From UHGV virus genome UHGV-0309045: a DNA stretch of 16,595 bases; one strand, given 5' to 3'. This document shows positions 3,775-14,458 of the stretch, piece after piece. The stretch comes from a virus. Under the pieces are notes generated by a model that did not search any database, was not told the origin of the DNA, and worked only from the letters and a program-made list of their open reading frames with translations. Made by a program: the position numbers and the translations under genes. The first letter of the stretch is position 1; each line of letters begins with the position of its first letter.

Positions 3775-4674
3775 TTACTTCATTCTGAAGACGCGTTGTG
3801 TCGTTGTTGTTTTGAATTTTTCGAATAACTCAGGGTGTACTGACTGGAATAGCTTCTGGTCGAATCTGTTGCTGATCTGAGATTTCCATGTGCAGAGCGG
3901 CTTTCCGTCCAGGGTCAGGACTGAGTGCTCTTGCATGTACATCTTCAGCTTCTCTTCTGATATAGCTATTTCTTCTTCCAGTGATTTTCTGCGTGATTTC
4001 ATGTCTCGTAGATCGTTGAATAGTGCGAGTGCCTTTCCGTCAGCCTCGATACTTGTCCCGGCATCTTTCTCAAACATCAGCGATACATCGCTTACGCTGG
4101 TAGCTTCCGGCGGGTTAAGATTTTTCACTCGGTCCCAGAAAGCGATTTCTTTTTCTAAGATCGCCTGGATAGTTTCTTCATCACGCTCAACCCGATAGAT
4201 TCGGAAGTCGTCGCCACCGATAAGCACACCGAAAACGCATACCTGTTTGTTTGTAACCATCAACCCGTGCATGGCCTGGGCCGTGTAATGCACAGGAATT
4301 GCATCTGTCTGGATTTCTCCCCATTCTTTGGCCTTGAACGGACTAACTGTTTTGATCTCAATGTTCTCGCCTGACGCTGCTTCTGCATCGATCTCAGCTG
4401 CAATAAAATCGTAATCACGGTGGATATAGCGGTTTCCGCGATGAACGATTTCCATCCCTGTTTCCTCAGAAAGCAGGTCTATTACGTATGGCTCCATACG
4501 CTGGCCACGCGTGAAAACTTTCTGCTTGCTTTGGTCTACTGGTTTGACACGTGGCTGGACCTTATCCAGATAAACCTCAAGCGGGGTGCGCCATGGGCTA
4601 ATTCCAAGAATCCCTGCAACATCGCTTCCTCCGATGTATTTTGTTCTATCCATGATTCCAGCGTTCCGCATCAT
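3775..4674 (-). CDS. RecE/YqaJ-family 5'-3' exonuclease (short form, partner of RecT)
   Basis: YqaJ-type nuclease motif YIGGSDVAGILGISPWRTPLEVY. Sits immediately upstream of recT, and its stop TAA lies inside the recT RBS. Start ATG 4674 overlaps the upstream ORF stop (ATGA). Confidence 0.8.
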   Translation of the reverse strand: MMRNAGIMDRTKYIGGSDVAGILGISPWRTPLEVYLDKVQPRVKPVDQSKQKVFTRGQRMEPYVIDLLSEETGMEIVHRGNRYIHRDYDFIAAEIDAEAASGENIEIKTVSPFKAKEWGEIQTDAIPVHYTAQAMHGLMVTNKQVCVFGVLIGGDDFRIYRVERDEETIQAILEKEIAFWDRVKNLNPPEATSVSDVSLMFEKDAGTSIEADGKALALFNDLRDMKSRRKSLEEEIAISEEKLKMYMQEHSVLTLDGKPLCTWKSQISNRFDQKLFQSVHPELFEKFKTTTTQRVFRMK

Positions 4675-4972: not shown

Positions 4973-5125
4973 TCAGCCCTCCCATATCTCATTATCGTTG
5001 GCTACATCGCGAGCTTCTTTGCTGACGAAAGCCCACTTAATGCCTTCCTGTAAGGTGCGGAACTTCCAGCTCATGAATCCGCATGCAGTAACGCAGTACC
5101 AACCGTTGATGATTTTCCACTGCAT
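4973..5125 (-). CDS. Small ORF (50 aa), first gene after the pL-like promoter
   Basis: Hand-translated: MQWKIINGWYCVTACGFMSWKFRTLQEGIKWAFVSKEARDVANDNEIWEG. ATG 5125-5123 with GAGGT about 9 nt upstream; stop TGA 4975-4973 abuts the next start. Below the ORF-track length cutoff. Confidence 0.35.
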   Translation of the reverse strand: MQWKIINGWYCVTACGFMSWKFRTLQEGIKWAFVSKEARDVANDNEIWEG

Positions 5126-5144
5126 AACTTGTTACCTCGGTCTG

Positions 5145-5159
5145 TTACCGTTGAGGTAA
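5145..5159. promoter_or_regulatory. Operator site TTACC GTTGA GGTAA (promoter-proximal site of the pL-like promoter)
   Basis: Perfect match to the TTACC-N5-GGTAA palindrome. An extra TTACC half-site at 5132-5136 forms a 7-bp inverted repeat TTACCTC/GAGGTAA around it. Confidence 0.6.
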
Positions 5160-5187
5160 TAATTATGCTTATTTGGTTTGGTGTCAA
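5159..5187 (-). promoter_or_regulatory. pL-like leftward early promoter
   Basis: On the minus strand: -35 TTGACA (plus coordinates 5187-5182), 17-bp spacer, -10 AATTAT (5164-5159) whose last base is the first base of the operator at 5159-5145. Confidence 0.5.
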
Positions 5188-5206
5188 TAGATATGAGTTA
5201 AAAAAA

Positions 5207-5221
5207 TTACCCGTAAGGTAA
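5207..5221. promoter_or_regulatory. Operator site TTACC CGTAA GGTAA (promoter-distal site of the pL-like promoter)
   Basis: Perfect palindrome match, 19 bp from the -35 hexamer and 62 bp centre-to-centre from the site at 5145-5159. Confidence 0.6.
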
Positions 5222-5232
5222 TCTATCTGGCA

Positions 5233-5256
5233 ATAAAAAAGCCGCCATGAGGCGGC
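5233..5256 (-). terminator. Rho-independent terminator of the repressor gene
   Basis: Hairpin GCCGCC-ATGA-GGCGGC (5241-5256) followed on the minus strand by TTTTTTATTG (5240-5231), 23 bp downstream of the repressor stop. Confidence 0.75.
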
Positions 5257-5278
5257 TTACTTACTGAAAAATATAGTT

Positions 5279-5863
5279 TTATTGTTTGCTTTTTTCGTTC
5301 TGGTTGATGACAAATTCAATGTAACTTTCGATCTTTGCTTTCTCGGTTTCGGGTAACAATGCGTAGCGCGAGCGGTCATAGTTGATAGTCGCAGGGTCGT
5401 GCGGGTGAATCAGTAGTTCATATCCGTGACGCCCGAATGCGGATGCAACATTCTCCAGGGTGGAAATGGAAACGCTGACCTCATTGTTTAACAGGCGACT
5501 GATTGTCACCTGGGCGACGCCGGATGCGCGGTGAAGTTTTCCCTGCGTTGAAAGGTCGCGGCTTTCGCTCATCCAGCGTTCCAGGTTGTGAGCCGCCAGC
5601 TGACCAATGTCGCTTGGGCCGACAGGCTGAAAACCTTCCTGAGAAAGCGAGCGATCGATATCAAGCCAGTTACGGGGTTTATTGGCGGCAGCTTCAATTT
5701 TTCGCGCAACCTGGTCGCCGATAACCTTCTTGCCAAGAGCCCAGCGGTTTACCAGATTTGCCTGAGTTCCAAGTTTTTCTGCCATCCGCGTCTGAACACC
5801 ATTGAATTCACGGTCGATCAAGTCGTTGAGATTTTGCCTGCGGACGTCCTGGATACTTTTCAT
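5279..5863 (-). CDS. CI-like prophage repressor with two HTH segments and no recognisable LexA/S24 peptidase domain
   Basis: Divergent from the Cro-like gene across an operator-rich intergenic region. HTH-like segments TRMAEKLGTQANLVNRW and ASGVAQVTISRLL. No Ala-Gly/Ser-Lys autocleavage motifs seen by eye. Confidence 0.75.
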   Translation of the reverse strand: MKSIQDVRRQNLNDLIDREFNGVQTRMAEKLGTQANLVNRWALGKKVIGDQVARKIEAAANKPRNWLDIDRSLSQEGFQPVGPSDIGQLAAHNLERWMSESRDLSTQGKLHRASGVAQVTISRLLNNEVSVSISTLENVASAFGRHGYELLIHPHDPATINYDRSRYALLPETEKAKIESYIEFVINQNEKSKQ

Positions 5864-5918
5864 TTTCTGGAAAATCGCCTCATATATGAATCAGTAGATG
5901 ATTCAATTTAAAGCAATA

Positions 5919-5981
5919 TTACCCAACAGGTAAATGCACCTCATAGGTAACTATCCTTGATTTTTGTTACCTTATGGGTGA
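5919..5981. promoter_or_regulatory. OR-like operator cluster with divergent promoter region (three sites)
   Basis: 5919-5933 TTACCCAACAGGTAA (perfect), 5936-5950 gcACCTCATAGGTAA, 5967-5981 TTACCTTATGGGTgA. Candidate rightward promoter: -35 TTGTTA 5964-5969 and -10 TATTAT 5987-5992, with the third site covering the spacer. Confidence 0.65.
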
Positions 5982-6017
5982 ATATTTATTATCTGAAATA
6001 AATATCAGGCAATAGCT

Positions 6018-6248
6018 ATGAGCGATAACGGACATTTCGATTTCAAAAAGCACTGGCTTGCACTTACTCCGGATGAGCGTGAAGCCTTCGCACAGGAAGC
6101 CGGAACGACGAGTCACTATATCCAGACTCACTTAACAGGTAAGCGCAAAATGCCAGGTAAGGTATTGATGAATGGGCTTTTTAAAGCCTGTAAAACAAGA
6201 CAATGGCTGCGCTCAAAAGCAGAACTGGCATACTTCTTCTACTCATGA
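6018..6248 (+). CDS. Cro-like small HTH regulator
   Basis: 76 aa, first rightward gene after the operator cluster, with an HTH-like segment REAFAQEAGTTSHYIQTHLTG. Followed by a terminator. Confidence 0.6.
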   Translation: MSDNGHFDFKKHWLALTPDEREAFAQEAGTTSHYIQTHLTGKRKMPGKVLMNGLFKACKTRQWLRSKAELAYFFYS

Positions 6249-6270
6249 TATCCATCCACAACCCTCTGTA

Positions 6271-6292
6271 GACCGCCATCCGGCGGTCTTTT
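6271..6292 (+). terminator. Rho-independent terminator after the Cro-like gene (tR1-like position)
   Basis: Hairpin GACCGCC-ATCC-GGCGGTC followed by TTTT. Confidence 0.7.
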
Positions 6293-6303
6293 CATATCTA
6301 TTC

Positions 6304-6318
6304 GTACCTCAAAGGTAA
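6304..6318. promoter_or_regulatory. Imperfect operator-like site gTACC TCAAA GGTAA
   Basis: 9 of 10 match to the TTACC-N5-GGTAA half-sites, between the terminator and the next gene. A TTGATC hexamer lies at 6336-6341. Confidence 0.35.
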
Positions 6319-6398
6319 TAAAAAACCAAATCTGGTTGATCTTTTTTTTGTGTCAGCACAAAATGACCGTAATCCCAATACTAATAACAGGGCTTACC

Positions 6399-6599
6399 AT
6401 GGAAATTATTACACGTATTGATGCCGCAAAGCGCGGACTTAAACGCTACTACACCGGAAAACCATGTAAGCACGGACATGACAGTGAACGCTGGGTTTAC
6501 AACGGACACTGTGTTGAGTGCACTATGGAATCAAACCGTCGCATCAGGGCAGAGATTAAGCAGATCATGATTAATTCCTCCCCACAACATTCAAGCTGA
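6399..6599 (+). CDS. Small zinc-ribbon-like protein (66 aa)
   Basis: Preferred start ATG 6399 with CAGGG RBS 6 nt upstream. Cys/His cluster KPCKHGH...NGHCVEC. Occupies the CII-like position between the Cro-like and replication genes. Confidence 0.55.
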   Translation: MEIITRIDAAKRGLKRYYTGKPCKHGHDSERWVYNGHCVECTMESNRRIRAEIKQIMINSSPQHSS

Positions 6600-6614
6600 T
6601 AGCGGAGATTAATC

Positions 6615-7406
6615 ATGAGCAGACATGCAACAGATTGGGCCTGGGAGACAGATCCAGGTAGCTCGTCATTAAAGCTCATACTGCTCTCGATGGCTGACAG
6701 AGCCGATGAATATAACCTCTGCTACCCCAGCATAGAACGCCTCGTTAAAGACACTTGCCTGAATAAAAAAACCGTGCAGGCCGGGCTTATATCGCTCATG
6801 AAAATGGGGCTTATTTCAGATACCGGAGAGAGAAAGGGTGCGACGAAAAGAGTGCGGGTTTTCTCTCTTAATATAACCAAAAACGGGAACATTAAAGGCA
6901 ACCGGGAAGGGGGTAATGAACCCGAAAACGGTAATGTTACCGAAAACGGGAATATACCCAAAAACGGGATGTTGAATGATCCCAAAAACGGGATCCAGAA
7001 CCAGTCATATAACCAGTCATTTAACCAAGAGAGGGAGAGCAGGACAAAAAGCGGGGATTCTGTGCCTCATGACCCCGGCGCAAACAACGCCGTGATGAAT
7101 AACTTTGTTCCTCCTGGTGGGCCAGGGCAATTAGGCAAATTTGTCATGCATGAACAATGGCAGCCATCAGATGACTTTCTTCGGAAAAGCTCATTGCAGG
7201 GGATCTACCTGGACAGTCTGCCAACGGCACAGGAGCTTGCAGAGTTCAGAATTTACTGGATGGCTGAGGGTAAGGCATACCATCAGGCACAGTGGGAGCA
7301 GAAGCTGGCAAGGCGGCTGCAGATTAGCAGACAGAAGCAATCAACATTACCTGATAACAACGTTCCGCACTGGAACAGCCCTGAAGCGTGGGAGGATTTC
7401 TTGTGA
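6615..7406 (+). CDS. Replication initiator: N-terminal winged-HTH domain and C-terminal DnaT-like domain (lambda O functional analogue)
   Basis: C-terminal block GKFVMHEQWQPSDDFLRK...ELAEFRIYWMAEGKAYHQAQWEQKLARRLQI resembles E. coli DnaT as recalled. The central NG-rich linker is encoded by the iterons. GGAG RBS upstream of ATG 6615. Confidence 0.8.
   Translation: MSRHATDWAWETDPGSSSLKLILLSMADRADEYNLCYPSIERLVKDTCLNKKTVQAGLISLMKMGLISDTGERKGATKRVRVFSLNITKNGNIKGNREGGNEPENGNVTENGNIPKNGMLNDPKNGIQNQSYNQSFNQERESRTKSGDSVPHDPGANNAVMNNFVPPGGPGQLGKFVMHEQWQPSDDFLRKSSLQGIYLDSLPTAQELAEFRIYWMAEGKAYHQAQWEQKLARRLQISRQKQSTLPDNNVPHWNSPEAWEDFL
6877..6993. repeat. Iteron array (putative phage ori) inside the initiator gene
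   Basis: Five copies of CC(A/G)AAAACGG(G/t)A at 6877, 6922, 6940, 6958 and 6982 (spacings 45, 18, 18, 24 bp), followed by a tandem AACCAGTCAT repeat at 6999-7008 and 7011-7020. Confidence 0.7.
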
Positions 7407-8188
7407 ACAACGTTTTTACCGCGATACAAAACCGTGACGGAGAAGCCCTTTCTCGCATGTCAGGTTATGAGCATCAGTACGTCAACAATGACAATGTGGT
7501 GAACATGTCAGCAGAGAGGCTTGTTGATGCCCTTTTCAAACAGCTGAAACAACTGTTTCCGGCGGCAGTAGTAACCAACCTGAAGACTCCAGAGCAGGAA
7601 GTTGCTGCAAAACAGCAGTGGATTGCTGCGTTTGCCGAAGGGGGGATCCGAACCCGTGAACAGGTTTCTGCTGGTATGCGCCACGCCCGCGCCAGTGAAT
7701 CTCCGTTCTGGCCGTCGCCAGGGCAATTCATCAAGTGGTGTAAAGACAGCAAGATGGTTCTTGGCGTCACCATTGACGATGTGATGGCGGAGTTTCACCG
7801 GTACAGCAAGGAAAAAAGTTTATATCCTGGTGGTCCCGAAAGATTCCCGTGGCGACATCCGGTTATGTACTGGGTCGTATGTGATACCCGCCGTGCAATG
7901 TATCAGCGCCAGCTTAGCGAGATTGAGGTTGAGAAACACGCGCGCAGGCTGCTCGATGATTGGGCGAAAAAGGTAGCTTCCGGACAGCAGATACCCGATC
8001 CGGTGATCAGCATACAGGCAAAGCCAGAACCCATGAGTACGCCTCCGGACACAGGGAGAGACGTTTACCATCCACCAGGGCGAAGTTTCGGGTGTATGCC
8101 TAACGCCGCCACATTGGGGGGAATAACACCGGCACAGTGGCTGATGGAGGAATACAGGCGGGGAAAGGCGGCAGGATTTATCAAGTAA
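7403..8188 (+). CDS. Lambda P-like replication protein (helicase loader)
   Basis: PFWPSPGQFIKWCK and surrounding blocks match lambda P as recalled (PFLPSPGQFVAWCR). GTG 7403 overlaps the initiator stop TGA 7404-7406 and has GGAGG 7 nt upstream; the ORF track starts 15 nt earlier at another GTG. Confidence 0.85.
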   Translation: MNNVFTAIQNRDGEALSRMSGYEHQYVNNDNVVNMSAERLVDALFKQLKQLFPAAVVTNLKTPEQEVAAKQQWIAAFAEGGIRTREQVSAGMRHARASESPFWPSPGQFIKWCKDSKMVLGVTIDDVMAEFHRYSKEKSLYPGGPERFPWRHPVMYWVVCDTRRAMYQRQLSEIEVEKHARRLLDDWAKKVASGQQIPDPVISIQAKPEPMSTPPDTGRDVYHPPGRSFGCMPNAATLGGITPAQWLMEEYRRGKAAGFIK

Positions 8189-8193
8189 TACCA

Positions 8194-8213
8194 GCGCGAT
8201 AGCGCATTTTTTT
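8194..8213 (+). terminator. Weak terminator-like element after the P-like gene
   Basis: 4-bp GC stem GCGC-GATA-GCGC followed by ATTTTTTT. The stem is short, so confidence is low. Confidence 0.3.
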
Positions 8214-8225
8214 ACGCCTTGATAG

Positions 8226-8302
8226 TTACCTTCTGGGTAACAAAGTATTCTAAACTCTATTGATTTCGTGTCTTATGTGGTTTTTAATTACCTCAGGGGT
8301 AA
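8226..8302 (+). promoter_or_regulatory. Operator-promoter-operator module driving the accessory operon
   Basis: Operators TTACCTTCTGGGTAA (8226-8240) and TTACCTCAGGGGTAA (8288-8302), both perfect palindrome matches. Between them -35 TTGATT 8260-8265, 17-bp spacer, -10 TTTAAT 8283-8288. The downstream operator overlaps the RBS of the 8306 gene. Confidence 0.6.
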
Positions 8303-8305
8303 ATT

Positions 8306-8650
8306 ATGAGAAAACAGATACAGGCTCTTGGTCGACTCAAAACAGGCCAGATGAACAAAACAGAATCTGCGTATTGCCAGCACCTTGAGTTGCGTAAACG
8401 TGCAGGAGAAATCGTCTGGTATCGATTTGAGGGTATCAAGCTGCGGTTAGCTGACAACACGTTCTATACGCCAGATTTTGCTGTGATGCTCGCCACCGGC
8501 GAGATGGAACTGCACGAAGTGAAAGGTTTCTGGACCGACGACGCCAGGGTGAAAACCAAAGTCGCCGCAGATCAGTATCCGTTCCGAATCATCGGGGTAA
8601 CGGTTAAACCAAAGAAAGCAGGTGGTGGCTGGAACATCGAAGAGTTCTGA
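8306..8650 (+). CDS. DUF1064-like phage protein (putative PD-(D/E)xK-type nuclease fold)
   Basis: Pattern ...AYCQHLELRKRAGEIVWYRFEGIKLRL...YTPDFAVM...ELHEVKGFWTDDARVKTKVAADQYP fits the DUF1064 spacing as I recall it. RBS AGGGG 6 nt upstream. Confidence 0.55.
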   Translation: MRKQIQALGRLKTGQMNKTESAYCQHLELRKRAGEIVWYRFEGIKLRLADNTFYTPDFAVMLATGEMELHEVKGFWTDDARVKTKVAADQYPFRIIGVTVKPKKAGGGWNIEEF

Positions 8651-8711
8651 ATCGACGATCTTTTTAGTTATCAATGTAATCAATAAGTTATGTGGATAAG
8701 CGAGGGTAAAG

Positions 8712-9245
8712 ATGGAAAGTAATATCAAAGGGTTAGTTGCCGCCGGGCATGAGATGGCTTCGGAACTGAAAGCAGAATGTGGTGCCGTTGATATGCGCAG
8801 TGTGGCAAAGCTGATCAGCGATTTGGCAACGCAACTGGAAGTGCAACTGGTGCGTGCTAATGCGATGGCCGAAGACCAGCAGAAAGCGATTGAGTCAATT
8901 AAGCAGGCTGATTCGGCTGTTAAGTTGGCACACGAGAAGTTTTCGGCGCTGGCGGCGGAGAATGCGGCAATGCATGAAGCTATTGAAGCCGTTCGGAGTG
9001 TTGCGGATAACTCCAGTGGAATTGCCGGATGGCATTTGAATGGCGATATCGCTACATGGGAAGAGATTCTTCCTGAAATTAACGATATCGAAACCCCAGC
9101 CACCGATGCTTTCCTGGCTGAAGTACGGGCGCAGGGGGTAGAGATGTTCTCAGAAAAATTCGGAGGTGGCACTCCGCTATCCAATATGGTCAAAGAGGTT
9201 GCGGCTGATTTTGCGGCGAAGCTTCGCAAAGGAGGCAACCAGTGA
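8712..9245 (+). CDS. Hypothetical helical protein (177 aa)
   Basis: GAGGG RBS 5 nt upstream of ATG 8712; stop overlaps the next start (GTGA). No recognisable motif. Confidence 0.7.
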   Translation: MESNIKGLVAAGHEMASELKAECGAVDMRSVAKLISDLATQLEVQLVRANAMAEDQQKAIESIKQADSAVKLAHEKFSALAAENAAMHEAIEAVRSVADNSSGIAGWHLNGDIATWEEILPEINDIETPATDAFLAEVRAQGVEMFSEKFGGGTPLSNMVKEVAADFAAKLRKGGNQ

Positions 9246-9865
9246 GCAAGATTGACTATCAGGCACTGCGTGAAGCGGCAGAACGCGCAATTCCGGCAAT
9301 GGAACGCCTGTTAACGTTGCCAGCCGATGATGACTTGTTAAGCGAAAAGGAGCTTAAAGATAGCGATGTTGATATTGATGCGATTAACAACTTCAAACTG
9401 CTGACCGGCCCGGAAACGGTGCTGGCACTGCTGGATGAACGGGAAAGAAACCAGCAATACATAAAACGCCGTGACCAGGAGAACGAGGATATTGCGCTTA
9501 CGGTTGGGAAGCTGCGAGTTGAGCTGGAAGCCGCAGAGAAGCGCAACGCTGAATTACAAAGCGAGAATGCATACATCCGCAACCGGTTCAAAGAACTGGA
9601 CCTGTTAATCGGGAAAAACATTCTGGTCATGCAGGCTGCGATTATCGAATGGCAGGCAACTGGCGACGCTAAGAGCGGACTGGCATGGATTTATAACACA
9701 CTGTTTGGCCCTGGCGAATTGCCGGACGAATCTGAGAAAGATGCTCAGGCCTACTTTAATCGCAAATATGCACCGATTGACGAAAAGCTTATGGAGCTTC
9801 ACAAGTGGTTTTGGGAACAAAGTGAATCCGAGCGCGCCGCTGGCATTCGCATCAAAGGAGAGTGA
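9242..9865 (+). CDS. Hypothetical coiled-coil protein (207 aa), possibly ead/Ea22-like
   Basis: GTG 9242 with GGAGG RBS 6 nt upstream. N-terminus MSKIDYQALREAAERA and a central coiled-coil segment. Family name is a tentative recollection. Confidence 0.6.
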   Translation: MSKIDYQALREAAERAIPAMERLLTLPADDDLLSEKELKDSDVDIDAINNFKLLTGPETVLALLDERERNQQYIKRRDQENEDIALTVGKLRVELEAAEKRNAELQSENAYIRNRFKELDLLIGKNILVMQAAIIEWQATGDAKSGLAWIYNTLFGPGELPDESEKDAQAYFNRKYAPIDEKLMELHKWFWEQSESERAAGIRIKGE

Positions 9866-9866
9866 T

Positions 9867-10154
9867 ATGGCAACTTTGCAGGAATTAATCGACCTGACGC
9901 CAGAACAGGAAAAAGCGTGGAATCGCCTTGTGAAGGCTGTAAAGGATTTCAGGGCAGCCGGAGGAAAGTTTTATAGCGTCCTGGACACGCTGAGCGCATA
10001 CAACGGCGAGCACGTTGCCAGCATTGATAACGATAAGGGCTACCACACTGCAAGCGTCTATATGCCTAGCATTGATGCGCCAGGGCTAACCAGTTGGGCT
10101 GATGATTGGCACGGCATCACGCTGAAAGATGGCGTTGAAGTGGATGAGGACTAA
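9867..10154 (+). CDS. Hypothetical protein (95 aa)
   Basis: ATG 9867 one nucleotide after the previous stop, with AAAGGAGAG RBS. The ORF track extends further upstream in frame, but that part overlaps the preceding gene. Confidence 0.65.
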   Translation: MATLQELIDLTPEQEKAWNRLVKAVKDFRAAGGKFYSVLDTLSAYNGEHVASIDNDKGYHTASVYMPSIDAPGLTSWADDWHGITLKDGVEVDED

Positions 10155-10157
10155 CAC

Positions 10158-10517
10158 ATGACCACTATTACCAATAAGAAACAGTATCCCAGCGAGCAAT
10201 ATCTTAATGAGCTGATCACCAACATAGAGTTTGCTGCAAGGGCACCAGTTGAAGTCGTGAGAGCGATGGCAGCAGAGCTACAGAAGCGGCGCGAAGCTGA
10301 TAGTGCAGAACCTGTAAGCCAGGCTTACAAGTTGAACGCGCTGGATGGCAACTCTCCGGTAACTCCGGATGGTTGGGTTATGGTTCCTAAACAGGTAACG
10401 CCGGAAATCAGCAACGCGATAAACGTTGTGGGTCAACGCTGTACATGCGGAAATTGCTCTCAGCGGTTGTGGGATTTATTACTCGACGCCACACAGCAAG
10501 GAGTTAACCGTGGCTAA
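10158..10517 (+). CDS. Hypothetical protein (119 aa)
   Basis: ATG 10158, 3 nt after the previous stop. C-terminal CTCGNC motif. Confidence 0.65.
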   Translation: MTTITNKKQYPSEQYLNELITNIEFAARAPVEVVRAMAAELQKRREADSAEPVSQAYKLNALDGNSPVTPDGWVMVPKQVTPEISNAINVVGQRCTCGNCSQRLWDLLLDATQQGVNRG

Positions 10518-10791
10518 CCTGCAACTTGCCGTTAAAGGTGAATACTTCGATGCCATGATTCGCGGAGAGAAAACGGAAGAGTATCGCCTGTGTAATGACT
10601 ACTGGAATAAGCGAATTATGTTCCGGGAGTATGACCGCCTGATTATCACAAAGGGATATCCGAAGCGCGACGACTCCAGCCGCAGAATTAACGTCCAGTA
10701 TGACGGATATGAAATCAAGACAATCACACATCCCCACTTCGGTGATAAACCGGTAAAGGTGTTCGCGATAAAGGTAAATATTGATGGCTAA
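10510..10791 (+). CDS. ASCH/DUF3850-like small protein (94 aa)
   Basis: GTG 10510 with AAGGAG 6 nt upstream, overlapping the previous gene by 8 nt. LQLAVKGEYFDAMIRGEKTEEYR resembles the ASCH-like DUF3850 N-terminus as recalled. Confidence 0.5.
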   Translation: MANLQLAVKGEYFDAMIRGEKTEEYRLCNDYWNKRIMFREYDRLIITKGYPKRDDSSRRINVQYDGYEIKTITHPHFGDKPVKVFAIKVNIDG

Positions 10792-11122
10792 ATCAGCAGC
10801 AGAGCGCAAAGCCGCTCAGAGAGCCAGACAAGCTGCATCTGGTGTGTGTAAGCTGGAAATTGTGCTTGATGCTCAGGAAATTGAAATGCTGGCGCGGAAC
10901 TGCGCCGCCCGGCGCCCTAGTCGCGATCCCTATGAAATGGCCGAGTACATCGCGCTGCTGATCCGCCAGGATGATGCACGTGTGCGCGGGCGTATAAAAT
11001 CGATCAGCAGAAAACTTTGCGGTAAGTGCGGCGAGAGAGTTCCCGTTAATTCATGCCCGTGTAATGGTGACTCGCAATGCTGGGTGACTAAAGGCTGGCA
11101 TGAAACGAAATTAATAGTGTGA
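10784..11122 (+). CDS. Basic Cys-rich zinc-ribbon protein (113 aa); candidate regulator, last gene before the terminase operon
   Basis: ATG 10784 overlaps the previous stop. Basic N-terminus MAKSAAERKAAQRARQAA and C-terminal CGKCGERVPVNSCPCNGDSQC cluster. Stop TGA 11120-11122 lies inside the 12-bp palindrome. Confidence 0.6.
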   Translation: MAKSAAERKAAQRARQAASGVCKLEIVLDAQEIEMLARNCAARRPSRDPYEMAEYIALLIRQDDARVRGRIKSISRKLCGKCGERVPVNSCPCNGDSQCWVTKGWHETKLIV

Positions 11123-11130
11123 CATGTCAC
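11119..11130. repeat. Perfect 12-bp palindrome GTGACATGTCAC (14-bp TGTGACATGTCACG shared with 13383-13396)
   Basis: Read directly from the sequence. Overlaps the stop of the 10784 gene and precedes the terminator at 11172. Confidence 0.85.
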
Positions 11131-11171
11131 GAGTAGATTATGCATGATGAATTTGATGGGTTTTGAATACT

Positions 11172-11198
11172 GCCGCCAACTATGGCGGCTTTATTTTG
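11172..11198 (+). terminator. Rho-independent terminator ending the accessory operon
   Basis: Hairpin GCCGCC-AACTAT-GGCGGC followed by TTTATTTTG. Confidence 0.75.
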
Positions 11199-11201
11199 CA
11201 T

Positions 11202-11233
11202 GGTACTATTACCACAACGGTAACTATTACCAC
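11202..11233 (+). repeat. Tandem direct repeat GGTA(A)CTATTACCAC x2 with 18-bp period, just upstream of the terminase small subunit
   Basis: ACTATTACCAC at 11205-11215 and 11223-11233. Each unit carries the operator half-sites in everted order (GGTAA-N3-TTACC). No sigma70 consensus promoter is evident, so this may be an activator-dependent late promoter. Confidence 0.5.
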
Positions 11234-11240
11234 GGTGGTT

Positions 11241-11837
11241 ATGATGCCTGCTGAACCTAAAACCTATAAACGCAAATCAACGCAATTTAAGCCACTAACA
11301 GCAATGCAGGAGGCTTATTGCCAGTCATACATCAAAACGCCTGAAAACCAGACTCAGGCAGCGATTAACGCAGGATTCTCCCCAAATACAGCGGCAGTTA
11401 AAGCCAGTGTCATGATGCGCGATGAACGCATTCAAAAACGGATTGCCGAGCTGATGGAGGAGCGCAACAAACGAATGCGCGTCAGTGCTGATTACGTTCT
11501 CATGCGCCTGGTGGAGATCGACCAGATGGACGTGATCGACATCCTCAACGACGATGGGAGCCTTAAGCCAATCCGCGAGTGGCCGAAAATCTGGCGCACT
11601 ACGCTTAGCGGCTTTGATCTGTCATCGACCATCATGAACATGAACGAGGATTCGATAGAGACAATCCTCAAAAAAATTAAATGGCCTGACAAGGTGAAGA
11701 ACCTCGAGCTTATCGGTAAGCACGTCGACGTCAACGCGTTCAAAGAGCGCCTGGATGTTAATGTGAATGTGACAATTGCTGATCGCATAGCGGCAGCCAG
11801 GAAGCGACTCAAAGAACGTCAGGATGGTAATCAGTGA
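11241..11837 (+). CDS. Terminase small subunit (Terminase_2-like)
   Basis: LTAMQEAYCQSYIKTPENQTQAAINAGFSPNTAAVKASVMM matches the small-terminase HTH signature. Start placed at ATG 11241 because the ORF-track start at 11163 spans the upstream terminator. Confidence 0.8.
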   Translation: MMPAEPKTYKRKSTQFKPLTAMQEAYCQSYIKTPENQTQAAINAGFSPNTAAVKASVMMRDERIQKRIAELMEERNKRMRVSADYVLMRLVEIDQMDVIDILNDDGSLKPIREWPKIWRTTLSGFDLSSTIMNMNEDSIETILKKIKWPDKVKNLELIGKHVDVNAFKERLDVNVNVTIADRIAAARKRLKERQDGNQ

Positions 11838-13791: not shown

Positions 13792-13869
13792 GAACTGGAA
13801 GCAATGAGTTATGCCTTCCGTGGCTGTACGGGTTTACAGCATGAAGTCATCGCAATGGCGTCCTGCTGT

Positions 13870-13954: not shown

Positions 13955-14031
13955 TGGTGTGGCATGCAGGATTCTAACCTGCGACCAACCGCTTAGAAGG
14001 CGGTTGCTCTGTCCAACTGAGCTAATGCCAC
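13955..14031 (-). tRNA. tRNA-Arg (anticodon UCU), argU-like, with encoded CCA
   Basis: Minus-strand sequence GTGGCATTAGCTCAGTTGGACAGAGCAACCGCCTTCTAAGCGGTTGGTCGCAGGTTAGAATCCTGCATGCCACACCA folds by hand into a cloverleaf: 7-bp acceptor stem, 4-bp D stem, 5-bp anticodon stem with loop CTTCTAA, 5-bp T stem, discriminator A, CCA. Close to E. coli argU as recalled. T-loop reads TTAGAAT rather than TTCGAAT. Confidence 0.9.
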
Positions 14032-14353: not shown

Positions 14354-14390
14354 TTACCCGAAGGGTAATAATTCGCGCGTTAAATGTCAA
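14354..14390 (-). promoter_or_regulatory. Operator TTACC CGAAG GGTAA (14354-14368) with an adjacent minus-strand -35 TTGACA (14390-14385); candidate repressor-controlled leftward promoter for the tRNA unit
   Basis: Perfect palindrome match and a perfect -35 hexamer on the minus strand 16 bp away. No convincing -10, so direction and function are inferred. Confidence 0.4.
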
Positions 14391-14458
14391 CTGCCTACGA
14401 TAAATAAATCATATGTGGTTAAATTGGTAATAATTTAATTGCGTACGGAGTCATTGAT

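What the first reader, a model, noticed from the sequence alone, without database searches (positions are those of the whole stretch)
5145..8302. Two paralogous 77-bp operator-promoter-operator modules with identical geometry
The minus-strand module at 5221-5145 and the plus-strand module at 8226-8302 have the same layout: operator (15 bp), 19 bp, -35 hexamer, 17-bp spacer, -10 hexamer whose last base is the first base of the second operator. Operator centres are 62 bp apart in both, about six helical turns. The operator sequences are near-identical in pairs (TTACCTTACGGGTAA versus TTACCTTCTGGGTAA upstream; TTACCTCAACGGTAA versus TTACCTCAGGGGTAA downstream). That points to duplication of a whole regulatory cassette and to cooperative or looped repressor binding that occludes both promoter elements.
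Basis: seen in the sequence. Interest (0 to 1): 0.65.

Follow-up and report, generated by a model that had tools for sequence, protein, structure and literature searches.

The report
Paired-operator promoters of phiV10-like prophage
These are two early lytic promoters of a phiV10/epsilon15-type E. coli prophage, each sandwiched between two binding sites for the phage's tetrameric repressor; the layout is real and strictly conserved, but it belongs to a phage switch whose repressor and operator motif have already been described.

Summary
Both 77-bp modules are at the stated coordinates with the stated geometry. The motif TTACC-N5-GGTAA occurs 7 times exactly in the window, against 0.00 expected. 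The window is a phiV10-like (Uetakevirus) prophage. Its repressor (5279-5863, minus strand) is a full-length homologue of Salmonella phage SPC32H Rep (PDB 5D50). That protein is a tetramer inactivated by a LexA-controlled antirepressor. The epsilon15 GenBank record already annotates the same palindromes as repressor sites, including sites in both modules.

Across about 330 modules from three Rep clades, operator spacing is 62 bp, rarely 61-64. Half-sites, -35 and -10 are invariant, while the central pentamer and upstream linker vary freely. Each module directly follows a terminator at a fixed 19-20 nt.

O2 is centred on the predicted start site and O1 near -62. O1 does not cover the -35, so "occludes both promoter elements" is inexact. 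Bridging of the two operators by one tetramer, forming a six-turn loop, is the best-supported mechanism. It is inferred, not shown.

Left and right modules share sequence beyond the functional elements (50% versus 19-33% out of register). Common origin is therefore plausible but ancient.

Verdict: a new member of a known kind, of modest interest.

The parts
5279..5863 (-). Rep, the prophage repressor (194 aa). N-terminal HTH DNA-binding domain, HTH_3-like middle domain, C-terminal oligomerisation region.
   Evidence: Full-length match to SPC32H Rep, PDB 5D50 (E 3.5e-42, residues 1-190). Pfam HTH_3 at residues 106-147 and no peptidase domain. 99.5% identical to phiV10 p40.
5239..5258 (-). Intrinsic terminator of rep, followed by a T6 run. 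O1 of the left module starts about 19 nt after the stem.
   Evidence: Terminator scan. Fold energy -18.1 kcal/mol, z -5.7. The stem-to-O1 distance is 19 nt in 77 of 83 left-type modules.
5207..5221 (-). Left module O1, the distal or auxiliary operator (TTACCTTACGGGTAA on the minus strand), centred near -62.
   Evidence: Exact motif match. Half-sites are invariant in 76 relatives while the centre varies. The orthologous site in epsilon15 is annotated as a repressor site.
5182..5187 (-). Left module -35 hexamer, TTGACA.
   Evidence: Promoter scan, 10/12 matches. Invariant in relatives. Conserved as CTATTGAC in all Rep clades examined.
5159..5164 (-). Left module -10 hexamer, AATTAT. Its last base is the first base of O2.
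   Evidence: Promoter scan. The junction AATTA|TTACC is conserved in left-type modules of several genera.
5145..5159 (-). Left module O2, the proximal operator (TTACCTCAACGGTAA on the minus strand). It is centred on the predicted start site, about 5152.
   Evidence: Exact motif match. The orthologous epsilon15 site is annotated as a repressor site. The start-site position is inferred from the -10.
4973..5125 (-). First gene of the leftward early operon (50 aa, phiV10 p39-like). It is followed by a YqaJ-type exonuclease gene and recT.
   Evidence: ORF list. phiV10 annotation. Pfam YqaJ hit for 3775-4674.
8194..8213 (+). Weak intrinsic terminator after the P-like replication gene (GCGC-GATA-GCGC then A T7). 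O1 of the right module starts 20 nt after the stem.
   Evidence: Fold energy -7.4 kcal/mol, z -3.4. Annotated as a terminator in phiV10. Stem-to-O1 distance is 20 nt in 152 of 152 right-type modules.
8226..8240 (+). Right module O1, the distal or auxiliary operator (TTACCTTCTGGGTAA), centred near -62.
   Evidence: Exact motif match. Half-sites are invariant, with 32 different central pentamers in 77 relatives. The orthologous epsilon15 site 35906-35922 is annotated as a repressor site.
8260..8265 (+). Right module -35 hexamer, TTGATT.
   Evidence: Read from the sequence. Invariant in 77 relatives. Conserved as CTATTGAWW across clades.
8283..8288 (+). Right module putative -10 hexamer, TTTAAT. 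It is non-canonical because it lacks A at position 2.
   Evidence: Read from the sequence. Conserved as TTWAAT across clades. Not listed by the scanner.
8288..8302 (+). Right module O2, the proximal operator (TTACCTCAGGGGTAA). It covers the predicted start site (about 8295), and its GGGG sits 4-7 nt before the ATG in the position of a ribosome-binding site.
   Evidence: Exact motif match. Conserved in all clades.
8306..8650 (+). First gene of the operon driven by the right module (DUF1064 protein).
   Evidence: Pfam DUF1064. phiV10 p45.
5919..5981 (.). OR region between rep and the 76-aa cro-position gene. It holds three operators: 5919-5933 (exact), 5936-5950 (2 mismatches) and 5967-5981 (1 mismatch).
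   Evidence: Motif search. A plus-strand promoter TTGTTA-17-TATTAT at 5964-5992 overlaps the third operator. The same 17/31 spacing is found in relatives.
6304..6318 (+). Single operator (GTACCTCAAAGGTAA). It lies 14 nt after terminator 6270-6289 and 17 nt before a TTGATC-17-CAAAAT promoter-like site that heads the replication genes.
   Evidence: plus reading of the sequence. Conserved in Tyrion, phiV10 and others.
11209..11241 (+). Tandem operator pair 18 bp apart (one exact, one with 1 mismatch). It lies 19 nt after terminator 11172-11189 and abuts the small-terminase start codon.
   Evidence: The same position is annotated as a repressor site in epsilon15 (12-27) and is present in SPC32H.
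14354..14368 (+). Exact operator upstream of the portal operon. A degenerate site (TGGTTAAATTGGTAA) lies exactly 62 bp downstream, at 14416-14430.
   Evidence: The orthologous site is annotated in epsilon15 (2931-2947).

Best explanation
The two modules are the repressor-controlled promoters of two early lytic operons of a phiV10/epsilon15-type (Uetakevirus) prophage. One drives the leftward recombination operon. The other drives the rightward operon that begins with the DUF1064 gene, downstream of the replication genes.

In the lysogen, the prophage repressor Rep binds the 15-bp palindromes TTACC-N5-GGTAA. Rep is a homologue of the SPC32H tetramer. O2 is centred on the transcription start site and directly blocks initiation. 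O1 is centred near -62, on the same face of the helix six turns away, and acts as an auxiliary operator.

The most likely mechanism is that one Rep tetramer, carrying two pairs of DNA-binding domains, holds O1 and O2 together. This would enclose the -35 and -10 in a tight loop of about 47 bp. The arrangement gives cooperative, switch-like repression in the manner of promoter-flanking lac loops.

On SOS induction, LexA cleavage releases the small antirepressor Ant. Ant breaks the Rep tetramer apart and frees all Rep-controlled promoters together.

Shown here: the sites, their conservation, the fixed lengths, and the homology of Rep and Ant. Inferred: Rep occupancy of these particular sites, the start sites, and the bridging loop.
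For: Sites and geometry:
- The motif is far above chance. The geometry was read directly and the left promoter was called at 10/12.

Identity of the element and its repressor:
- The window is a phiV10-like prophage.
- Rep matches SPC32H Rep 5D50 over its full length, E 3.5e-42.
- Published descriptions say Rep binds DNA as a tetramer, with each DNA-binding pair drawn from different dimers, and that Ant disassembles it. They place the two pairs of middle domains about 100 A apart.
- An Ant homologue (88% identical) with a canonical LexA box is present in phiV10 and in the closest E. coli genome.
- The epsilon15 record annotates the orthologous palindromes as repressor sites.

Constraint on sequence and length:
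- In 76-77 near-identical prophages the half-sites, -35 and -10 have zero diversity, while operator centres and the upstream linker vary.
- Spacing is 62 bp in 165 of 169 operator pairs spaced 61-63 bp apart in the loci fetched by then, nearly all from phiV10-type prophages.
- In the epsilon15 group it is 62 (64 pairs), 63 (10), 61 (1) and 64 (2). In the Klebsiella group it is 63 (left module) and 62 (right module).
- It is never off by half a turn within these clades.
- All 152 right-type modules share lengths 20/19/17 despite 49 different linker sequences.

Feasibility of the loop:
- For Lac repressor, a promoter flanked by operators 60-65 bp apart on the same face is strongly repressed through looping. 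About 60 bp is the smallest promoter-flanking loop seen (PMC3592455).
Against: - No binding, footprint or start-site data for these sites could be read. The primary SPC32H and epsilon15 papers are not held.
- The right-module -10 lacks the key A at position 2.
- The geometry is not obligatory for Rep control. Two relatives (Pseudescherichia, Serratia) have an 18-bp tandem operator pair in place of the right module. The Serratia left module has operators 75 bp apart.
- The same Rep must also serve pairs 17-18 bp apart at OR and upstream of the small-terminase gene. A single rigid span therefore cannot explain everything.
- A test for 10.5-bp periodic A/T content between the operators, which would indicate sequence-encoded bendability, was not significant (p 0.19).
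- Straight 62 bp of DNA is about 210 A, against about 100 A between the Rep middle-domain pairs. A bridge would need strong bending or long flexible linkers.
Confidence: 0.6

Rival explanations
1. There is no loop and the two operators work separately. O2 alone represses by covering the start site. O1 has a different job tied to the terminator just upstream. Rep bound at O1, 19-20 nt after the terminator stem, would stall an incoming RNA polymerase with its 3' end in the U-tract. That would reinforce termination and insulate the operon from read-through. On the left side the read-through would come from the constitutively transcribed rep gene. Alternatively, or in addition, O1 blocks alpha-CTD contacts with the A/T-rich stretch next to it. 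Under this view the 62-bp spacing is a by-product of two fixed distances.
For: - A terminator precedes each operator group: 5258-5239, 6270-6289, 8194-8213 and 11172-11189.
- Stem-to-O1 distance is 20 nt in 152 of 152 right-type and 19 nt in 77 of 83 left-type modules, while the linker sequence is among the most variable stretches.
- rep and the left operon are on the same strand, so read-through would matter there.
- The terminator ahead of the right module is weak, at -7.4 kcal/mol.
- From my own knowledge, not checked here: protein roadblocks halt E. coli RNA polymerase roughly 14 nt before the bound site. That would place the 3' end about 7 nt past the stem.
Against: - In a lysogen the operon upstream of the right module is itself repressed, so there is little to terminate there. 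Yet that is where the length is most strictly kept.
- Epsilon15-type left modules lack an obvious adjacent terminator but keep the 62-63 bp spacing.
- Rep is a tetramer with two DNA-binding pairs, which makes bridging of same-face sites likely whenever both are present.
- The two ideas are not mutually exclusive.
Confidence: 0.25
2. The shared geometry is only inherited. An ancestral cassette was copied once, and its lengths persist because small insertions or deletions are rare. Under this view the operator spacing has no functional importance, and O1 may be dispensable.
For: - Left and right modules share sequence beyond the operators and hexamers. Identity is 50% in register against 19-33% shifted. 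In one E. coli relative the 17 nt before and into the -35 match 16/17 between left and right.
- Variants with 18-bp and 75-bp spacing exist and are presumably viable.
Against: - O1 half-sites have zero diversity in 77 relatives, while the five bases between them and the linker beside them are about 2-4 times as diverse as the average four-fold degenerate site. O1 is therefore under strong selection.
- Spacers have diverged by 33-50% between clades without length change in more than 300 modules. The observed changes are nearly all plus or minus 1 bp: a few at 61 or 63, and two unoriented pairs at 64.
Confidence: 0.08
3. The palindromes are mainly targets of a second regulator, for example the 76-aa protein at the cro position (6018-6248). 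On this reading the modules time early gene shut-off during lytic growth rather than maintain lysogeny.
For: A small gene with no family assignment sits where cro sits in lambdoid phages. In lambda-type switches, Cro and CI share operators (my own knowledge).
Against: There is no evidence about this protein's DNA binding. The epsilon15 annotators assign the sites to the repressor. The conserved Rep N-terminal helix region (NLVNRW invariant) matches the conserved half-sites across clades. This would in any case add to Rep control rather than replace it.
Confidence: 0.05

Closest known systems
Rep/Ant lytic switch of Salmonella phage SPC32H (Uetakevirus; PDB 5D4Z and 5D50; Kim & Ryu 2013 J Virol; Kim et al. 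2016 PNAS)
   Same: - Rep is homologous over its full length (E 3.5e-42, about 43% identity).
- The operator half-sites TTACC/GGTAA are the same.
- The same two 62-bp modules sit at orthologous positions in SPC32H (33604/33666 and 35972/36034).
- An Ant homologue (88% identical) with a LexA box is present in phiV10 and in the closest E. coli genome.
   Different: - The repressor clade differs.
- SPC32H and epsilon15 operators have A-tract centres (AAAAW), whereas phiV10-type centres are free.
- Epsilon15-type left regions carry a third operator 76 bp further on.
- I could not read the primary papers, so I do not know whether they describe the 62-bp layout.
Annotated 'repressor' binding sites of phage epsilon15 (GenBank AY150271.2)
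   Same: 17-bp palindromes ATTACC-N5-GGTAAT are annotated at the left module (both operators), the right module (upstream operator), upstream of the small-terminase gene, upstream of the portal operon, and in the ant/tailspike intergenic region. These are the positions where the window has sites.
   Different: The record does not annotate the right-module O2, the OR sites, the promoters or the spacing. phiV10 records annotate the terminators but no operators.
Promoter-flanking Lac repressor loops (natural O3-O1 at 92 bp; engineered Osym/O2 at 60-65 bp)
   Same: A bivalent tetramer, a proximal operator at the start site, an auxiliary operator upstream on the same helix face, and the promoter inside the loop. 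About 60 bp is the minimal promoter-flanking loop, and 65 bp in phase gives strong repression (PMC3592455).
   Different: The protein family is unrelated. Looping by Rep is inferred, not shown. Here the arrangement recurs at several promoters in one small genome.
Lambda CI with OL/OR and N/Q antitermination
   Same: The gene order is the same: integrase, recombination genes, repressor, cro-position gene, replication genes. The repressor controls a leftward and a rightward early promoter, and there is a tripartite OR.
   Different: - Rep has no S24 autocleavage domain and is inactivated by an antirepressor.
- The left region has two operators 62 bp apart rather than three adjacent ones.
- Further Rep sites head additional, terminator-bounded units (6304, 8226, 11209, 14354).
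- That suggests direct repression of many promoters rather than an antitermination cascade. This last point is inference.
Rco of Bacillus plasmid pLS20 and other loop-forming tetramers with the p53-like 'TetDloop' domain
   Same: An N-terminal HTH domain plus a C-terminal tetramerisation domain. The SPC32H Rep C-terminal domain was assigned to this fold. Rco represses through DNA looping and is relieved by an anti-repressor (PMC9986798).
   Different: Rco loops over a longer distance and uses several tetramers. Rep has an extra middle dimerisation domain. That paper states that the structural mechanism of repression by Rep is not well characterised.

Membership tests
SPC32H-type Rep/Ant switch of Uetakevirus phages | Repressor homologous to SPC32H Rep over its whole length (DNA-binding, middle dimerisation and C-terminal tetramerisation/Ant-binding regions) | tested here: met
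   phmmer against PDB: 5D50_A, E 3.5e-42, query residues 1-190 against chain residues 2-197. Six-clade alignment with a conserved N-terminal region and C-terminal YxxF/FxxF.
SPC32H-type Rep/Ant switch of Uetakevirus phages | Repressor lacks a LexA/CI-type S24 autocleavage domain | tested here: met
   The Pfam scan finds only HTH families in the 194-aa protein.
SPC32H-type Rep/Ant switch of Uetakevirus phages | Small antirepressor Ant expressed from a LexA-controlled promoter | tested here: met
   The gene lies outside the window. In the closest genome (100% identical over 5100-8350), an 85-aa protein is 88% identical to SPC32H Ant (E 6e-57) and carries the box TAACTGTATATTTATACAGTAG. The same is true in phiV10.
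SPC32H-type Rep/Ant switch of Uetakevirus phages | Operators are (A)TTACC-N5-GGTAA(T) palindromes at the orthologous genome positions | tested here: met
   Window sites. SPC32H and epsilon15 sites. Epsilon15 annotation.
SPC32H-type Rep/Ant switch of Uetakevirus phages | Rep forms a tetramer and binds these operators | not testable with these tools
   Known for SPC32H Rep from papers read second-hand. Not measured for the phiV10-type protein.
Promoter-flanking repression loop (lac-like) | Two operators flank one promoter, with the proximal operator at the start site | tested here: met
   Geometry read from the sequence. The start site is predicted, not mapped.
Promoter-flanking repression loop (lac-like) | Operator spacing is close to a whole number of helical turns and is conserved in length | tested here: met
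   Spacing is 62-63 bp, about 5.9-6.0 turns. 165 of 169 operator pairs spaced 61-63 bp apart are at 62, and other clades are at 62 or 63. 152 of 152 right-type modules share identical lengths. Exceptions with 18 and 75 bp occur in two distant relatives.
Promoter-flanking repression loop (lac-like) | Repression depends on both operators and on a bivalent repressor | not testable with these tools
   This needs reporter fusions with operator and tetramerisation mutants.
Promoter-flanking repression loop (lac-like) | Intervening DNA shows phased bendability | tested here: inconclusive
   A/T periodicity at 10-11 bp in 14 diverse modules, permutation p 0.19. This feature is supportive of a loop rather than defining.
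Lambda-type CI operator arrays | Three adjacent operators (about 23-24 bp apart) at both OL and OR, bound by an autocleavable CI | tested here: not met
   The left region has two operators 62 bp apart. OR has three operators at 17 and 31 bp. Rep has no S24 domain.
Paralogous (duplicated) regulatory cassette | Similarity between the two copies beyond the functionally constrained elements | tested here: met
   Family-wide, identity at 36 spacer positions is 50% in register against 19-33% shifted. Within-genome values are 14/36 (window), 22/36 (Tyrion) and 21/36 (Pseudocitrobacter). Left-left (67%) and right-right (65%) identity exceed left-right identity, so the split predates the clades. Shared extra functional elements cannot be excluded as an explanation.

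The most novel reading that the evidence does not exclude
The real unit would be an invariant cassette of about 115 bp: terminator, 20 nt, O1, 19 nt, -35, 17 nt, -10/O2. It would act as a repressor-gated insulator. One Rep tetramer would clamp a six-turn micro-loop around the core promoter, which would be among the tightest natural repression loops. The same tetramer would also stall upstream polymerases on the weak terminator. When Ant disassembles the tetramer, it would open the promoter and permit read-through in a single step. Copies and variants of the cassette sit at most transcription units. Together they would replace the lambda-style antitermination cascade with direct, genome-wide repression.
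Probability: 0.15. Interest if true: 0.6.

Novelty: new member of a known kind. Interest (0 to 1): 0.3.

Why it matters
The finding places an unannotated regulatory layout of a very common E. coli prophage inside a switch that has been solved structurally. The prophage was found in 557 of 5426 complete genomes.

It also supplies what the structural work lacked, namely the natural arrangement of operator pairs that a Rep tetramer has to bind. There are two arrangements: pairs 17-18 bp apart and pairs 62 bp apart. This yields a concrete, cheap experiment on whether a phage repressor forms a loop at the lower size limit known from engineered lac constructs.

For genome annotation, it gives a simple signature for early promoters in Uetakevirus prophages: terminator, 20 nt, TTACC-N5-GGTAA, 47 nt, TTACC-N5-GGTAA. 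It does not reveal a new kind of system.

Tried and rejected
- **Primary literature.** The epsilon15 genome paper (DOI, and PMC2698709), Kim & Ryu 2013 (PMC3807360) and Kim et al. 2016 (PMC4983836) are not held. Statements about Rep come from papers that cite them and from my memory of the abstracts. Full-text searches for operator descriptions in phiV10 or Uetakevirus found only the ZX5 paper, which predicts promoters but defines no operators.
- **Genome-collection scan.** A scan with Rep alone returned only two loci. The first viral scan, using an alignment, returned 80 near-identical loci. These were useful for population variation but not for diversity. Diversity came from an epsilon15-Rep scan and from protein search plus contig look-ups.
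- **Hypervariable operator centres.** Within +/-200 bp the centre of O1 looked far more variable than anything else. Against four-fold degenerate sites over +/-400 bp the excess is only about 2-4 fold (mean diversity 0.49 against 0.13 for the right module). I therefore read it mainly as lack of constraint, not as a proven mutational hotspot. It is absent in the epsilon15 and Klebsiella clades, where centres are conserved A-tracts, and absent at OR.
- **Bendability test.** 10.5-bp A/T periodicity was not significant.
- **RNA explanation.** Rfam finds only a tRNA in the window, so the palindromes are not a known RNA element.
- **A third module of the same geometry at 14354.** A degenerate site lies exactly 62 bp downstream, but no -35/-10 pair fits the register. 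I left this open.
- **Recent duplication.** Rejected, because the window's own spacers match at only 14/36 positions.

Full report

Yes. On the minus strand the left module reads:
- O1 at 5221-5207 (TTACCTTACGGGTAA), then 19 nt;
- -35 TTGACA at 5187-5182, then 17 nt;
- -10 AATTAT at 5164-5159;
- O2 at 5159-5145 (TTACCTCAACGGTAA).

On the plus strand the right module reads:
- O1 at 8226-8240, then 19 nt;
- -35 TTGATT at 8260-8265, then 17 nt;
- -10 TTTAAT at 8283-8288;
- O2 at 8288-8302, then ATG at 8306.

The two stretches align without gaps. The consensus scan calls the left promoter at 10/12. The palindrome TTACC-N5-GGTAA occurs 7 times exactly in 16.6 kb against 0.00 expected. Allowing two mismatches, there are 18 matches against 4.1 expected.

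One weakness concerns the right module. Its -10 lacks the consensus A at position 2, so the scanner does not list it.

**2. What is the element?**

The region is 97-98% identical to phage phiV10 and its relatives. It is present in 557 of 5426 complete E. coli genomes. phiV10 is a Uetakevirus, that is, an epsilon15-like podovirus.

The gene between the modules (5279-5863, minus strand) encodes a 194-aa repressor. It matches the crystallised repressor of Salmonella phage SPC32H over its whole length (PDB 5D50, E 3.5e-42). It has HTH domains only and no autocleavage domain.

Papers I could read describe SPC32H Rep as follows:
- It is a tetramer that binds palindromic sites using pairs of N-terminal domains drawn from different dimers.
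- It is taken apart by the antirepressor Ant (PMC9638917).
- Its C-terminal domain has a p53-like tetramerisation fold.
- Its two pairs of middle domains lie about 100 A apart (PMC9986798).

phiV10 and the E. coli genome closest to the window both encode an 85-aa protein 88% identical to SPC32H Ant. It sits behind a canonical LexA box. That prophage is integrated next to guaA.

**3. Is the motif known?**

The GenBank record of epsilon15 annotates 17-bp 'repressor' binding sites at seven places. These include both operators of the left module and the upstream operator of the right module. Others lie upstream of the small-terminase gene, upstream of the portal operon, and between ant and the tailspike gene.

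The window has sites at the corresponding places: 11209/11227 and 14354. The closest genome also has them near ant. phiV10 records annotate the terminators but not the operators.

I could not obtain the primary papers. I therefore cannot say whether the 62-bp layout itself has been described.

**4. Comparative evidence for function**

In 76-77 phiV10-type prophages the half-sites, the -35 and the -10 show no variation. The five central bases of O1 and the 8-9 bases before it vary freely. There are 32 different pentamers at the right O1.

Measured against four-fold degenerate sites, these positions are about 2-4 times as diverse as the average. That fits absence of constraint, possibly with some excess.

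Spacing between the operators:
- 62 bp in 165 of 169 operator pairs spaced 61-63 bp apart across the loci then in hand, nearly all phiV10-type;
- 62 bp (64 pairs), 63 (10), 61 (1) and 64 (2) in the epsilon15 clade;
- 63 bp (left module) and 62 bp (right module) in a Klebsiella clade whose Rep is 45% identical to the window's.

Relatives with Rep 54-61% identical keep the half-sites, and most keep both modules.

All 152 right-type modules that matched a permissive pattern have identical lengths. These are terminator stem, 20 nt, O1, 19 nt, -35, 17 nt, -10/O2, with 49 different linker sequences.

The layout is not obligatory. Pseudescherichia and Serratia relatives carry a compact pair 18 bp apart in place of the right module. 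There O1 lies inside the -35/-10 spacer (TTGCAA-17-AATTAT) and O2 at +1. The Serratia left module has a decayed O2 and a new operator 13 bp further on, giving 75 bp.

**5. Where do the operators sit relative to the promoter?**

A start site about 7 nt after the -10 puts the centre of O2 at about +1 and the centre of O1 at about -62. O1 ends 19 bp before the -35.

O2 blocks the start site. O1 is an auxiliary site.

In the right module, O2 also supplies the purine-rich stretch 4-7 nt before the ATG, so the leader would be very short.

**6. Mechanism**

The best-supported reading is that a Rep tetramer binds O1 and O2 together, on the same helix face six turns apart. That would enclose the core promoter.

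For Lac repressor, operators flanking a promoter at 60-65 bp give strong loop-dependent repression. About 60 bp is the smallest such loop, and a tight loop alone can silence a promoter (PMC3592455).

Disassembly of the tetramer by Ant would remove this cooperativity at all sites at once.

Several points count against certainty:
- No binding or start-site data were available.
- Variant layouts exist in relatives.
- The same protein must also bind pairs 17-18 bp apart.
- Straight 62 bp of DNA is about 210 A, against a middle-domain separation of about 100 A.
- A/T periodicity between the operators is not significant (p 0.19).

I put 0.6 on the overall explanation and about 0.5 on the single-tetramer loop specifically.

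**7. A rival or complementary idea**

Each operator group follows a terminator:
- 5258-5239, at -18.1 kcal/mol;
- 6270-6289, at -15.0 kcal/mol;
- 8194-8213, at only -7.4 kcal/mol;
- 11172-11189, at -15.8 kcal/mol.

The stem-to-O1 distance is fixed at 19-20 nt although the sequence there is free. Rep at O1 could stall a polymerase on the U-tract and strengthen termination. This would matter most on the left, where rep and the lytic operon share a strand.

The idea is weakened because the operon upstream of the right module is itself silent in a lysogen. Epsilon15-type left modules also lack an adjacent terminator.

**8. Are the modules paralogous?**

In this window the 36 positions outside operators and hexamers match at only 14/36. 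Across ten modules from six phages or prophages (five left, five right), left-versus-right identity at these positions is 50% in register, against 19-33% at shifted registers. Left-left identity is 67% and right-right 65%.

In one E. coli relative, the 17 nt leading into the -35 match 16/17 between left and right.

A common origin that predates the present clades is therefore plausible, perhaps with occasional conversion. A recent duplication is not.

**9. Verdict**

This is a new member of a known kind: the Rep/Ant switch of epsilon15-like phages, whose operator motif was already annotated.

What appears to be undescribed, as far as I could check, is threefold:
- the strict terminator-O1-promoter-O2 length conservation;
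- the coexistence of wide (62 bp) and tight (18 bp) operator pairs;
- the presence of Rep sites at most transcription units.

Interest is modest at 0.3. The most novel reading, a repressor-gated insulator and micro-loop that substitutes for antitermination, has a probability of about 0.15.

Noticed in passing
window 6304-6318, 11209-11241, 14354-14368 (and 14416-14430): There are further repressor-type palindromes outside the finding. One is a single site after the terminator of the cro-position gene. Another is a tandem pair 18 bp apart that abuts the small-terminase start codon. A third is an exact site upstream of the portal operon, with a degenerate site exactly 62 bp downstream. The positions match sites annotated in epsilon15 and present in SPC32H. 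Rep may therefore directly control late as well as early units.
   Followed up: partly
window 8231-8235 and 8217-8225; 5212-5216 and 5222-5230; loci L009-L088: Among 76-77 otherwise 97-99% identical prophages, the central pentamer of the terminator-proximal operator is unusually diverse. There are 32 haplotypes at the right module and 13 at the left. The 8-9 nt before that operator are also diverse. These are the most diverse stretches within +/-200 bp and about 2-4 times the mean four-fold-site diversity. Their length never changes. The pattern is not seen at OR or in the epsilon15 and Klebsiella clades, where the centres are conserved A-tracts (AAAAW).
   Followed up: partly
L007:1843-1875, L171:1785-1817, L171:5422-5511: There are alternative Rep-controlled promoter layouts in relatives. 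A compact form has two operators 18 bp apart, one of them inside the -35/-10 spacer. A Serratia left module has a decayed proximal operator, replaced by a new one 13 bp downstream (75-bp spacing).
   Followed up: partly
window 8271-8282, 14409-14420; SPC32H L006:3230-3241, 20050-20060: A conserved string C(A/T)TATGTGGTT lies just upstream of the -10 region in right-type modules. It also lies upstream of the portal and tail-fibre operons, in both E. coli and Salmonella phages. It might be part of an unusual promoter or a site for another factor.
   Followed up: no
window 13958-14031 (minus strand): A tRNA gene (72.5 bits), annotated as tRNA-Arg in the closest genome and at the same position in SPC32H. 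It lies between the terminase and portal genes.
   Followed up: no
window 13824-13839: A LexA-box-like sequence, CTGTACGGGTTTACAG. A similar one is present at the corresponding place in phiV10 (2722). It may lie inside a small ORF and may be chance.
   Followed up: no
window about 8350-11200 versus NZ_OZ040490.1: The window is 100% identical to this genome over 5100-8350. It differs by about 145 bp in length somewhere between the right module and the small-terminase gene, so the window comes from a closely related but not identical prophage.
   Followed up: no
window 6018-6248: The 76-aa protein in the cro position has no Pfam match. It is followed by its own terminator, so the rightward immediate-early unit appears to encode this protein alone.
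   Followed up: no
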